Position numbers and translations under genes: made by a program. This document shows, piece by piece, positions 20,303-23,140 of a DNA stretch of 64,000 nt. The notes under the pieces were generated by a model. That model searched no databases. It saw only the letters and a program-made list of their open reading frames with translations, and was not told the DNA's origin. Location: assembly GCF_056712565.1 (NCBI RefSeq), contig NZ_CM160072.1. One strand, written 5' to 3'. Position 1 is the first letter of the stretch; every line of letters begins with the position of its first letter.

Positions 20303-20488
20303 TTATGCCGCTTTGCGGTAAGCGCTTTCTTGATACTTCAGGGCGCCAGCTGTAACGACTTCCAGTCGATAGGCGTCTTTCTCTGGGATGACTTCCTTCC
20401 ACTGAGAGACTGCTGCGTCGCTAATGCCTAACGCTTTAGCTACAGCACGCTGGGTTCCGAAGTGGTCGATAACATCTTTCTTGTACAT
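20303..20488 (-). CDS. cro: Cro (P22-type)
   Basis: 61 aa, MYKKDVIDHFGTQRAVAKALGISDAAVSQWKEVIPEKDAYRLE..., as P22 Cro. Confidence 0.9.
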   Translation of the reverse strand: MYKKDVIDHFGTQRAVAKALGISDAAVSQWKEVIPEKDAYRLEVVTAGALKYQESAYRKAA

Positions 20489-20568: not shown

Positions 20569-21219
20569 ATGAAAACTCAATTGATGGGAGAGCGCATTCG
20601 CGCTCGGAGAAAAGAACTCAAGATCAGGCAGGCCGCACTTGGAAAGATGGTCGGCGTGTCTAATGTTGCCATATCTCAGTGGGAACGCTCTGAGACAGAG
20701 CCAAATGGAGAGAATCTTCTCGCCCTGGCTAATGCGTTGAAGTGTTCCCCTGACTATCTGATGAAAGGAGAGGAAAGTCTTTCAAACATTGCCTATCACA
20801 GTAGGCATGATCCAAGAGGGTCATACCCTCTGATTAGCTGGGTGAGCGCAGGATGCTGGATGGAAGCTGTAGAACCATATCATAAGCGTGCAATAGATAA
20901 CTGGTACGATACAACCGTAGACTGTTCAGAAGATTCGTTTTGGTTGGACGTGAAGGGAGACTCAATGACGGCTCCGGCCGGTCTCAGTATCCCTGAAGGA
21001 ATGATAATACTCGTCGATCCTGAAGTAGAGCCGCGTAACGGGAAACTGGTAGTTGCAAAGCTCGAAGGAGAAAACGAGGCAACTTTCAAGAAGTTAGTTA
21101 TTGATGCAGGCAGGAAGTTTCTAAAACCACTTAACCCACAATATCCGATGATCGAGATCAACGGAAACTGCAAAATCATCGGCGTAGTTGTCGATGCAAA
21201 ACTAGCAAACCTTCCATAA
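20569..21219 (+). CDS. c2: C2 repressor (P22-type, LexA-like S24 autopeptidase)
   Basis: 216 aa, MKTQLMGERIRARRKELKIRQAALGKMVGVSNVAISQWERSE..., as P22 C2. Confidence 0.95.
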   Translation: MKTQLMGERIRARRKELKIRQAALGKMVGVSNVAISQWERSETEPNGENLLALANALKCSPDYLMKGEESLSNIAYHSRHDPRGSYPLISWVSAGCWMEAVEPYHKRAIDNWYDTTVDCSEDSFWLDVKGDSMTAPAGLSIPEGMIILVDPEVEPRNGKLVVAKLEGENEATFKKLVIDAGRKFLKPLNPQYPMIEINGNCKIIGVVVDAKLANLP

Positions 21220-21220
21220 G

Positions 21221-21246
21221 GGGGCATTCGCCCCTTTTTTTTTATT
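21221..21246 (+). terminator. Intrinsic terminator after c2
   Basis: GGGGCATTCGCCCC followed by T9. Confidence 0.7.
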
Positions 21247-21249
21247 TCC

Positions 21250-21345
21250 TTTAAAAATCAAAGCCAAACTTAAGTTACGAAAGAAAATTTAAGTTTTCTT
21301 CAAAAATGCTCTTGACCATTAATTAAAGAGATCTTAAATTTAAGC
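21250..21345 (+). promoter_or_regulatory. OL operators and pL (TTGACC-17-TAAATT at 21312..21340) directing the N operon
   Basis: Repeated TTTAAG/CTTAAA operator half-sites overlapping a sigma-70-like promoter. Confidence 0.6.
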
Positions 21346-21384
21346 CATCAGCAGGACGCTGGAAGCCAAACGGAACAGATTGGC

Positions 21385-21427
21385 AGGCTCTTTAACATTG
21401 ATGGGATTGTCCCGCCGAAATGCGGGA
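21385..21427 (+). promoter_or_regulatory. nutL (boxA GCTCTTTAACA plus boxB hairpin CCCGCCGAAATGCGGG)
   Basis: Same boxA/boxB RNA as nutR, located in the pL leader. Confidence 0.6.
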
Positions 21428-21740
21428 ACCAAAGAGTAGTTGGCTTTGGGGTGACGTGAAGTGCAGCTGCACGACGGCAACCGGAAGATAAGCACCCGGC
21501 GCGTCACCGCCAAAGTCAATTCCATAGGCGTTATGCAGCCGCCACCATATTCAAGAAAGCTGCACAAGAGGTAGGAGGATTTATGTGAATGCATAACTTC
21601 AAAACCGAGGTTAATTAAATCTCTCGATCCGAGCATCGACCTATTAGGTGGCGAGATGCTCTTTCTGCCCCTCAGTTCGAGGGGCCAGAAACCACTTTGC
21701 AATCACTATCAATTCCAAAGTTGTTTCATCGGAGGTCAAC

Positions 21741-22040
21741 ATGACAGTAGTCATTACATATCTGGCTGACGATAACGCCAGAAATCGCCGCAGAGCACGC
21801 AGACAGGCTCAACGTGAACAGGCGATGCAAGAACAGCGACTGGCGCGAAAAATTGCGCTAAAGCTCTCTGGTTGCGTCAGAGCGGATAAAGCAGCATCAC
21901 TCGGAATCCTTCGCTGCAAGAAGGCAGATGAAGTCGAGAGTAAACAGAATCGTATTTACTACCGCAAGCCACGCAGTGAAATGGGTGTGACTTGTGTTGG
22001 TCGCCAGAAAATGAAATTAGGCAGCAAACCACTTATTTGA
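21741..22040 (+). CDS. N-like antiterminator (gene-24 type, arginine-rich motif)
   Basis: 100 aa from the ATG at 21741 (ribosome-binding site GGAGG). N-terminal NARNRRRARRQAQREQ and C-terminal ...YRKPRSEMGVTCVGRQKMKLGSKPLI resemble the lambda N C-terminus. Confidence 0.75.
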   Translation: MTVVITYLADDNARNRRRARRQAQREQAMQEQRLARKIALKLSGCVRADKAASLGILRCKKADEVESKQNRIYYRKPRSEMGVTCVGRQKMKLGSKPLI

Positions 22041-22048
22041 GGTGATAT

Positions 22049-22519
22049 ATGACAAAATCATGGAGCGTACCTTTTCCTGAATCAGAAACTGAACATGATG
22101 GAATGCCTGTTTTCTGGAGATTCCAAGCGACAGTTGAAGAAGATGGAATCAAAATATTCGCACTTCAATATATAGCTTTTCATCAGACAGAGCATTATGC
22201 ATGGTTGGTTCCTGCGCATTGGATTGTTAATTTTAAACCAGCACCAAATCAGTGGTTACAGGAATGGAAACAAAGGAGAAATAGATATGCAATTAAGAAA
22301 GTAGCAAAAAATGCAGAAAGATCTTTTGCATTCCCGACGAAGAAACTTGCCATTGAAAGTTTATTGCGCCGGAAGAAATACCATTTGATGAGAATCAAAC
22401 AAGATTTGGCTGTTGTATCAACTCTTGTTGATGGGATGAAGAATATTGATACATCAACACCAGGTATTGAATATAACTTTGGACACAACCAAGAAACAGA
22501 AAACTGGGTGTTTTATTAG
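22049..22519 (+). CDS. Orphan immediate-early protein (156 aa) with no recognised family
   Basis: ORF 9 nt after N and before the tL1-like terminator, with no transmembrane segment. The N-terminal half is aromatic-rich and the C-terminal half is basic. Confidence 0.55.
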   Translation: MTKSWSVPFPESETEHDGMPVFWRFQATVEEDGIKIFALQYIAFHQTEHYAWLVPAHWIVNFKPAPNQWLQEWKQRRNRYAIKKVAKNAERSFAFPTKKLAIESLLRRKKYHLMRIKQDLAVVSTLVDGMKNIDTSTPGIEYNFGHNQETENWVFY

Positions 22520-22623
22520 TACGAATAAGCACTGTGTATTCATTCCAACGAGTGAATACACGGAGCAATGTCGCTCGTAACTAAACAGGAGCCGACTTGT
22601 TCTGATTATTGGAAATCTTCTTT

Positions 22624-22648
22624 GCCCTCCAGTGTGAGGGCTTTTTTA
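22624..22648 (+). terminator. tL1-like intrinsic terminator
   Basis: GCCCTCCAGTGTGAGGGC followed by TTTTTTAT. Confidence 0.65.
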
Positions 22649-22713
22649 TATGCATACCAATAACGCTTCACTCGAGGCGTTTTCGTTATGCAATCAAACA
22701 GAAGGAGCATCCT

Positions 22714-22884
22714 ATGCAACAGTTCGCTATTGCAGGGGCGGCATCGGTTCGCCCTTTCAACCCGATTTTATCGGTACAGCATTCACGAAAAAACATTTTA
22801 ACCGGAGCAGACTTTAAACAACCAAGAATGAAAAGCTTGCTCGAAAAGCTTTGGGATATTTTGAAACAACAAGGCCGTCCATGA
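22714..22884 (+). CDS. cIII: CIII-like small protein (56 aa)
   Basis: MQQFAIAGAASV...SLLEKLWDILKQQGRP resembles the lambda CIII core MQYAIAGWP...ESLLERI. Strong ribosome-binding site AAGGAG. Confidence 0.55.
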   Translation: MQQFAIAGAASVRPFNPILSVQHSRKNILTGADFKQPRMKSLLEKLWDILKQQGRP

Positions 22885-23039
22885 GTTTTACGGATAACTG
22901 GTCAGACGAAGAATTCATTCGTCAGATAAAAGAATTAATCGGTAACGAAGGAGATATTCATGTCACTTGCAACCACAGTGAAGGAGAGCAAGTTACAGAG
23001 ACGCATGTACACGCAGAAAGCTCTCTGGTATCGCCATAA
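22881..23039 (+). CDS. Small hypothetical protein (52 aa), translationally coupled to the cIII-like gene via ATGA
   Basis: Start ATG overlaps the upstream stop. Acidic. No family recognised. Confidence 0.4.
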   Translation: MSFTDNWSDEEFIRQIKELIGNEGDIHVTCNHSEGEQVTETHVHAESSLVSP

Positions 23040-23140
23040 TGGTGACCGCGAAGGAATGCGGGTATGCCTTAATTTGTCCCGAGTCGAAGTATTAAATCAG
23101 CGTTATTTCCTTGGGCCGTGTCCATTCTGAGAGCAATCAT

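What the first reader, a model, noticed from the sequence alone, without database searches (positions are those of the whole stretch)
22049..22519. Orphan 156-aa immediate-early gene between N and the tL1-like terminator
The gene starts 9 nt after N. Because it ends before the first leftward terminator (22624..22648), it should be expressed from pL together with N without needing antitermination. I could not place the protein in any family; it has an aromatic-rich N-terminal half and a basic C-terminal half. In lambdoid phages the slot just after N typically holds host-takeover or anti-restriction functions such as Ral, so an unknown gene here is a reasonable anti-defence or host-modulation candidate. 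It is not SieB-like (no transmembrane segments) and not Ral-like.
Basis: inference. Interest (0 to 1): 0.6.

Follow-up and report, generated by a model that had tools for sequence, protein, structure and literature searches.

The report
Uncharacterised early phage gene after N
This is a real, widely conserved phage gene (the HK97 gp45 / 933W p19 family). It sits in the swappable slot just after the antiterminator N, where other phages carry the anti-restriction gene ral. Its function has never been tested, and its predicted fold matches no solved structure.

Summary
The ORF at 22049..22519 (156 aa) starts 9 nt after N's last base. Its Shine-Dalgarno overlaps N's stop codon, and it ends 105 nt before the first intrinsic-terminator-like hairpin.

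It is not an orphan. It is 98.7-99.4% identical to HK97 gp45 and 933W ST933Wp19 (PHROG 1636, unknown function). It occurs in 83 phage records and 597 of 5426 complete E. coli genomes, and it has remote relatives in phages of Vibrio, Pseudomonas, Pantoea and other hosts. Purifying selection is strong (dN/dS 0.05-0.14).

It is a low-GC cassette in an exchangeable slot bounded by conserved DNA. The closest phage, CUS-3, carries ral plus another ORF there. mEp213 carries orf184, a published trigger of Gop-beta-cII abortive infection. HK022 carries IS903. The downstream 125-nt hairpin-plus-terminator element is also present in lambda, between ral and ea10.

My best guess, inferred and not shown, is an immediate-early, non-enzymatic binding protein for counter-defence or host conditioning. 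The gene and its family were already catalogued; only the function is open.

The parts
21312..21340 (+). pL-like promoter (TTGACC-17-TAAATT) overlapped by P22 c2-type operator half-sites
   Evidence: Promoter scan. Inverted repeats 21285-21303 / 21323-21341 match the oR-side repeats.
21387..21426 (+). nutL-like region: boxA-like GCTCTTTAACA (21387-21397) and a boxB-like hairpin CCCGC-CGAAAT-GCGGG (21411-21426)
   Evidence: Read from the sequence. The assignment is inferred. The region 21339-21450 is 76% conserved in an unrelated N-bearing contig, L017.
21741..22040 (+). N antiterminator gene (99 aa, CUS-3 type)
   Evidence: PHROG 271 at E 2.9e-36. 93% nucleotide identity to the CUS-3 N region.
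21987..22051 (+). Left junction sequence shared by CUS-3, HK97 and 933W. It encodes the last 18 codons of N here, but it is the N-gp45 intergenic spacer in HK97 and 933W.
   Evidence: Overlapping blastn homologies, compared with the annotations.
22039..22044 (+). Shine-Dalgarno GAGGTG, overlapping N's stop codon, 4 nt before the ATG
   Evidence: Sequence.
22049..22519 (+). The gene: 156-aa HK97 gp45 / 933W p19 family protein (PHROG 1636). A low-GC cassette (36.7% GC, GC3 29%).
22534..22561 (+). 12-bp hairpin (GTGTATTCATTC-CAAC-GAGTGAATACAC) that opens the conserved downstream element
   Evidence: RNA fold of 22515-22660 gives z = -4.26. The hairpin is conserved with CUS-3 although the upstream genes differ.
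22529..22652 (+). Conserved ~125-nt right boundary element (two hairpins plus the terminator). Present in 325 phage records, including lambda 33920-34045.
22624..22648 (+). Intrinsic-terminator-like hairpin GCCCTC-CAGTGT-GAGGGC followed by TTTTTTA. It is the first such site downstream of pL.
   Evidence: HK97 and mEp phage records annotate the same site as a putative terminator.
22662..22681 (+). Second, weaker terminator-like hairpin
22714..22884 (+). cIII gene, the first gene beyond the terminator
   Evidence: PHROG 550 'CIII' at E 1e-22.

Best explanation
The ORF is a genuine protein-coding gene of the HK97 gp45 / 933W p19 family.

It is a self-contained, low-GC cassette in the exchangeable slot between N and the first intrinsic terminator of the leftward early operon. 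Lambda and CUS-3 carry ral in this slot, and mEp213 carries orf184.

It is transcribed from pL on the same message as N and is probably translationally coupled to it. It would therefore be made in the first minutes after infection or induction, before N-dependent read-through.

The product is a soluble 18.6-kDa alpha/beta protein. The model shows a three-stranded sheet at residues 19-55 and a long helix at 98-130. The family has no conserved catalytic motif and keeps a basic face at residues 75-117.

I think it most likely acts by binding either nucleic acid or an acidic host protein. The purpose would be to blunt a host barrier to incoming phage DNA (restriction-type defence) or otherwise condition the host. 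It would be a dispensable accessory function, not a core one.

Shown: gene reality, family, cassette structure, position, predicted fold. Inferred: timing of expression, binding mode, counter-defence role. I put the counter-defence role itself at about 0.35.
For: Real gene under purifying selection.

Cassette with conserved flanks and alternative contents:
- CUS-3 has ral plus a PHROG 3054 ORF between the same N end and the same 120-nt element.
- Lambda has ral just upstream of the element.
- mEp213 has orf184.
- HK022 has IS903.

ORF GC is 36.7% against 45-49% in the flanks.

Silas et al. treat the ral region as an accessory region enriched in counter-defence genes. They showed that orf184 from it triggers Gop-beta-cII.

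No terminator-like site lies between pL and the stop codon, and the Shine-Dalgarno overlaps N's stop.

A 71%-identical homologue also follows a different N allele with a 2-nt gap.

Confident model (pLDDT 92.3) without any PDB analogue, but with 12 BFVD matches, all to phage proteins.

Near-invariant positions across 48 remote members are only G33, E/Q46, K87 and A101, so there is no catalytic signature. Median pI is 9.0, with conserved basic columns at 75-117.

Remote relatives sit one to five genes from Lar or from DNA methyltransferases in three independent phages.

The family also occurs in phages that show no lysogeny genes in the stretches I read.
Against: No experiment and no homology links the protein to any defence system.

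Neighbourhood evidence is weak, because methyltransferases are common in phage early regions. Other contexts point elsewhere:
- first gene before a ParB-like protein and RusA;
- after a primase/helicase;
- next to xis-int;
- an opposite-strand insert between terS and terL.

The E. coli copies are nearly invariant (95-100% nt identity, dN/dS 0.05), which is not what a fast arms race predicts.

The family is absent from conjugative plasmids, where many anti-restriction genes also occur.

The gene was not among the 200 accessory genes screened by Silas et al., so there is no phenotype for it, positive or negative.

Rho-dependent termination upstream of the gene cannot be excluded from sequence.
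Confidence: 0.4

Rival explanations
1. It is a nucleic-acid-binding helper or regulator of phage DNA metabolism or gene expression (replication, recombination, partition or transcription control), with no role in countering defence.
For: Conserved basic patch and basic pI across the family. In Bas81 and related contigs it heads an operon with a ParB-like protein and RusA. Elsewhere it follows a primase/helicase or an AAA_24/exonuclease recombination module. It is highly conserved, as a housekeeping-type binder would be.
Confidence: 0.25
2. It is a host-takeover protein that is toxic to the cell (Kil-like growth or division inhibitor, or nucleoid or RNA polymerase modulator) and is made at the very start of infection.
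For: Immediate-early position next to N. This prophage lacks kil between cIII and erf, whereas HK97, CUS-3 and mEp213 have it. The family is present in phages that show no lysogeny genes in the stretches I read.
Against: HK97 and 933W carry both this gene and kil, so it is not a kil substitute. There is no similarity to any known takeover protein. No toxicity data exist.
Confidence: 0.12
3. It is a prophage-encoded exclusion or defence gene (SieB-like in role) that protects the lysogen against other phages.
For: Lambda sieB lies in the same N-to-ral interval. One remote relative is an opposite-strand, moron-like insert between terS and terL. Low GC is typical of morons.
Against: No promoter-like site lies between pL and the gene, and only 8 nt separate it from N, so it should be repressed in a lysogen. 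It has no membrane segment. It has no PADLOC match. Relatives occur in phages that show no lysogeny genes in the stretches I read.
Confidence: 0.08

Closest known systems
HK97 gp45 / 933W ST933Wp19 (NP_049479.1) / H-19B ORF; PHROG 1636
   Same: Same protein: 98.7-99.4% identity over all 156 residues. Same position after N and before the same terminator element.
   Different: The N allele differs here (CUS-3 type), so the N-to-gene gap is 8 nt, not 58 nt. None of these copies has a known function; all are annotated 'hypothetical'.
Lambda / CUS-3 Ral (restriction alleviation, PHROG 1055)
   Same: Occupies the same slot between N and the same conserved terminator element, so it should be expressed at the same time.
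   Different: Ral is 66 aa against 156 aa here. No sequence or profile similarity. Ral's action on type I R-M is established knowledge; nothing comparable is known for this protein.
mEp213 orf184 (AFM76385.1), trigger of the Gop-beta-cII abortive-infection system (Silas et al., bioRxiv 10.1101/2023.04.06.535777)
   Same: Lies immediately upstream of the same terminator element, in the same accessory region, downstream of an N gene.
   Different: Unrelated sequence: an acidic 107-aa protein, hhalign probability below 1%. This gene was not in that screen.
Lambda SieB
   Same: Encoded in the same N-proximal interval of the pL operon.
   Different: SieB is a membrane protein with its own promoter (my own knowledge). 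This protein has no hydrophobic segment and no upstream promoter-like site, and no PHROG match to SieB.

Membership tests
HK97 gp45 / PHROG 1636 family | Full-length sequence match to the family profile | tested here: met
   phrog_1636 at E 1.1e-111, residues 1-156 aligned to profile positions 1-156. 98.7% identity to HK97 gp45 and 99.4% to the 933W protein.
HK97 gp45 / PHROG 1636 family | Position downstream of N and upstream of the conserved hairpin-terminator element in lambdoid phages | tested here: met
   Same arrangement in HK97, 933W and Huey. More distant members sit elsewhere.
Accessory-region gene (variable gene between conserved flanks, in the sense of Silas et al.) | Conserved flanking DNA with unrelated gene content in related phages | tested here: met
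   The flanks 21987-22051 and 22529-22652 are conserved. The contents differ: gp45 here, ral+orf in CUS-3, orf184 in mEp213, IS903 in HK022.
Ral (restriction alleviation) | Sequence similarity to Ral (about 66 aa) | tested here: not met
   No PHROG 1055 hit at E<=1. hhalign probability 0.1%.
Ral (restriction alleviation) | Alleviates type I restriction and enhances modification | not testable with these tools
   Needs plaque assays of unmodified phage on EcoKI-type hosts.
SieB superinfection exclusion | Membrane-spanning segments and similarity to SieB | tested here: not met
   Maximum Kyte-Doolittle(19) is 0.56. No SieB family among the PHROG hits.
Immediate-early gene of the pL operon (lambda paradigm) | Lies between pL and the first terminator | tested here: met
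   pL-like site at 21312-21340. No + strand terminator-like site until 22624.
Immediate-early gene of the pL operon (lambda paradigm) | Transcribed without N; the transcript ends at the terminator | not testable with these tools
   Needs RNA-seq or term-seq with and without N. Rho-dependent sites cannot be seen in the sequence.
AP2 / integrase arm-type DNA-binding domains (considered because of a sheet-then-helix pattern and the 'RFAF.TKEEA' motif) | Profile similarity to an AP2 domain or to the lambda Int N-terminal domain | tested here: not met
   hhalign probabilities 0.4% and 0.7%.
Known anti-phage defence proteins (PADLOC) | Match to any PADLOC model | tested here: not met
   No hit for the window protein. 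Only 2 isolated weak hits among 48 remote members.

The most novel reading that the evidence does not exclude
The gp45 family is a new, structurally novel class of immediate-early phage counter-defence protein (or defence trigger). It would bind nucleic acid or a host immune component through its conserved basic face. It would be shared by lambdoid prophages (including the Shiga-toxin phages) and by unrelated phages of Vibrio, Pseudomonas, Pantoea and other hosts.
Probability: 0.3. Interest if true: 0.65.

Novelty: new member of a known kind. Interest (0 to 1): 0.4.

Why it matters
The gene is carried by the model phage HK97, by the Shiga-toxin phages 933W and H-19B, and by prophages in about one in nine complete E. 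coli genomes. It is probably among the first two proteins made after infection or induction. Even so, nobody has assigned it a function, and its confidently predicted fold has no solved relative.

It sits in a slot whose other occupants include a known anti-restriction protein and a known trigger of abortive infection. That makes it a cheap, well-defined candidate for a counter-defence or host-modulation screen.

If it affects defence or host physiology, it could influence the host range and spread of Stx phages.

Tried and rejected
Family and sequence searches that gave nothing:
- Pfam, NCBIfam, PADLOC and PDB sequence searches, run with the single protein and with a 48-member remote alignment.
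- PHROGs gave only unknown-function families: 1636, 13631 and 25384.

Structure:
- The first AlphaFold model, built from close homologues only, was poor (pLDDT 65). Its Foldseek search was uninformative.
- The afdb50 library was not available.

Specific ideas tested and rejected:
- Is it orf184 of Silas et al.? Rejected by reading the deposited model and the sequence table.
- Is it AP2-like or Int-arm-like? Rejected.
- Is it related to the CUS-3 ORF that shares the slot? Rejected.
- Does it lie in plasmid leading regions? The only plasmid hits are phage-like, non-mobilizable records.
- Is there an Rfam RNA in or around the gene? None.

Literature searches found nothing on function. I searched for gp45, accession numbers, PHROG 1636, and Stk/HK97.

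The search for related loci could not use the remote alignments and found nothing for one remote member.

Full report
**Observation.** The ORF listing gives an ATG ORF at 22049..22519 on the + strand, 156 aa. Upstream, the frame 21741..22040 encodes a 99-aa N-like antiterminator (PHROG 271, E 2.9e-36; Pfam N_peptide is below its cut-off). N's TGA occupies 22038-22040, and a GAGGTG Shine-Dalgarno at 22039-22044 overlaps it, 4 nt before the ATG. Translational coupling to N is therefore plausible.

The immunity region reads as follows: cro at 20303..20488 (-), a c2/cI-type repressor at 20569..21219 (+) with its own terminator, and a pL-like promoter at 21312..21340 embedded in operator-like inverted repeats. 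A boxA-like GCTCTTTAACA lies at 21387 and a boxB-like hairpin at 21411-21426 (the assignment is inferred).

On the + strand, the first terminator-like site after pL is 22624..22641 plus a T-run. A weaker one follows at 22662..22681, and cIII then starts at 22714. Residues 1-74 are 19% aromatic, residues 75-130 are 27% Lys/Arg, pI is 9.3, and there is no hydrophobic segment.

**Is it a gene?** Yes. Full-length homologues at 55-99% identity occur in Escherichia, Salmonella, Cronobacter, Rosenbergiella, Pectobacterium, Brenneria and metagenomes. Forty columns are invariant and there are no frameshifts. Between genera, synonymous sites are saturated (pS 0.7-0.9) while pN is 0.17-0.30. dN/dS is 0.05 against HK97, 0.07 between Brenneria and Pectobacterium, and 0.14 against Rosenbergiella.

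**What is it?** It is not an orphan. tblastn finds it in 83 phage records. It is 99.4% identical in 933W (ST933Wp19, NP_049479.1), phi24B, BP-4795, Min27 and the BASEL phages Huey and Bas106, and 98.7% identical in HK97 (gp45) and H-19B. Every copy is annotated 'hypothetical'. It is PHROG 1636, unknown function.

597 of 5426 complete E. coli genomes carry it, with up to four copies each. Plasmid hits are only phage-like, non-mobilizable records.

A profile search of 1.8 billion representatives finds 87 relatives at E<=1e-3. Most are 130-155 aa with the same architecture. They fall in PHROGs 13631 and 25384, also of unknown function. No Pfam, NCBIfam, PADLOC or PDB sequence match exists for the protein or for 48 remote members.

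**Structure.** With close homologues only, AlphaFold gave pLDDT 65. With the 48-member remote alignment it gave pLDDT 92.3 and pTM 0.80. The model has strands at 19-30, 33-46 and 50-55, short helices at 56-61 and 66-74, a strand at 83-86, a long helix at 98-130, and an ordered C-terminal tail.

Across remote members, only G33, E/Q46, K87 and A101 are near-invariant, so there is no catalytic signature. Median pI is 9.0, and a set of basic columns between residues 75 and 117 is conserved, with K87 at 100%. This suggests a binding protein, perhaps for nucleic acid. That is inference.

**The slot.** The window is a CUS-3-like (P22-like) prophage. blastn shows that CUS-3 homology runs 21200-22051 and resumes at 22529-22647. 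HK97 and 933W homology runs from 21987 to 22707 and 22652 respectively. The ORF therefore sits precisely between two conserved junctions.

- The left junction (21987-22051) encodes the last 18 codons of this N, but it is the N-gp45 intergenic spacer in HK97 and 933W.
- The right junction is a 125-nt element consisting of a 12-bp hairpin, a second hairpin and the terminator. Its RNA fold has z = -4.26.

This right-hand element occurs in 325 phage records, including lambda at 33920-34045. In lambda that is 42 nt downstream of ral and just upstream of ea10. By sequence it is therefore the counterpart of the lambda terminator region after ral. To my own knowledge that is the tL2 cluster of Luk and Szybalski, which I could not verify here. 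It is not the counterpart of lambda tL1. By position it is the first intrinsic terminator in this phage.

Between the same flanks, other phages carry other contents:
- CUS-3 has ral plus a PHROG 3054 ORF.
- mEp213 has a 74-aa ORF plus mEp213_045.
- HK022 has IS903.

mEp213_045 is 'orf184' of Silas et al. They describe it as lying in the same accessory region as ral and showed that it triggers the Gop-beta-cII abortive-infection system. The gp45 family is not among their 200 screened genes and is unrelated to orf184 and to Ral.

The ORF's GC content is 36.7% (GC3 29%) against 45-49% in the flanks, as expected for a horizontally moving cassette.

**Other contexts.**
- A 71%-identical copy follows a third kind of N with a 2-nt gap.
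- Pectobacterium and Brenneria copies (about 63%) are the last gene before xis-int.
- The Bas81 copy and a 63%-identical metagenomic homologue are the first gene of an operon with a ParB-like protein and, in Bas81, a RusA-like resolvase.
- Remote members lie two genes after a Lar restriction-alleviation homologue, two genes after a DNA methyltransferase in Pantoea phage LIET2, and in the same operon as a C5-methyltransferase near int in Pseudomonas phage Medea1.
- Others lie after a primase/helicase, at the end of a recombination module, and as an opposite-strand insert between terS and terL.

The common thread is early or DNA-metabolism regions and high mobility. The repeated proximity to anti-restriction-type genes is suggestive but weak.

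**Interpretation.** Gene reality, family, cassette nature, position before the first intrinsic terminator and a confident novel fold are shown. Immediate-early expression is inferred from the lambda paradigm. The function is unknown.

I commit to an immediate-early, dispensable, non-enzymatic binding protein for counter-defence or host conditioning (overall confidence 0.4; the counter-defence role itself about 0.35). The rivals are:
- a nucleic-acid-binding helper or regulator (0.25);
- a toxic host-takeover factor (0.12);
- a prophage exclusion gene (0.08).

Against an arms-race role, the E. coli copies are almost invariant and there is no plasmid distribution.

**Novelty and interest.** The sequence and its family were already in the databases as hypothetical proteins, and an unknown gene after N is not surprising to a specialist. 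What this analysis adds is the exact cassette structure shared with ral and orf184, the breadth of the family, and a confident fold with no solved relative. The gene is a sensible, inexpensive candidate for experiment but not a strange finding. Interest 0.4.

Noticed in passing
window 22529-22652: A 125-nt structured element directly after the gene, made of a 12-bp hairpin at 22534-22561, a second hairpin and the terminator. It is 95-100% conserved in 325 phage records, including lambda 33920-34045, whatever gene lies upstream. Its RNA fold has z = -4.26. The role of the first hairpin is unknown; it could be an RNase III site, a pause site or a recombination linker.
   Followed up: partly
window 21987-22051: The last 18 codons of this N are homologous (98%) to the non-coding N-gp45 spacer of HK97 and 933W. 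This is a mosaic joint where one phage's intergenic DNA is another's coding sequence.
   Followed up: partly
window 21665-21686: A GC-rich hairpin, GCCCCTC-AGTTC-GAGGGGC, lies in the N leader about 55 nt before the N start codon. It has no T-run. It recalls the RNase III-sensitive structure in the lambda N leader. I did not examine it.
   Followed up: no
window 22652-23140: After the terminator come cIII (22714-22884), then two small overlapping ORFs. One is 22881-23039 (PHROG 2123). The other is 22960-23130 (PHROG 1723), which resembles orf168 of Silas et al.; its phenotype column in their gene table reads 0. Then comes erf. There is no kil gene between cIII and erf, unlike HK97, CUS-3 and mEp213.
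   Followed up: partly
L021 5001-5384 (metagenomic phage contig): A remote member of the family is a lone opposite-strand gene inserted between the small and large terminase genes. That placement is moron-like or typical of a mobile gene.
   Followed up: no
L024 (HK022) 1221-2144: In HK022, the slot between Nun and the conserved terminator element is occupied by an IS903 transposase. The slot evidently tolerates insertions.
   Followed up: no
L026 3944-6213 (Escherichia phage Bas81); L014 4001-5298: In Bas81 and related contigs, the homologue is the first gene of a short operon followed by a ParB-like protein; in Bas81 a RusA-like resolvase also follows. A retron preprint (10.64898/2026.04.27.721009) reports that Bas81 is blocked by Retron-Sen3. 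No link to this gene was shown.
   Followed up: no
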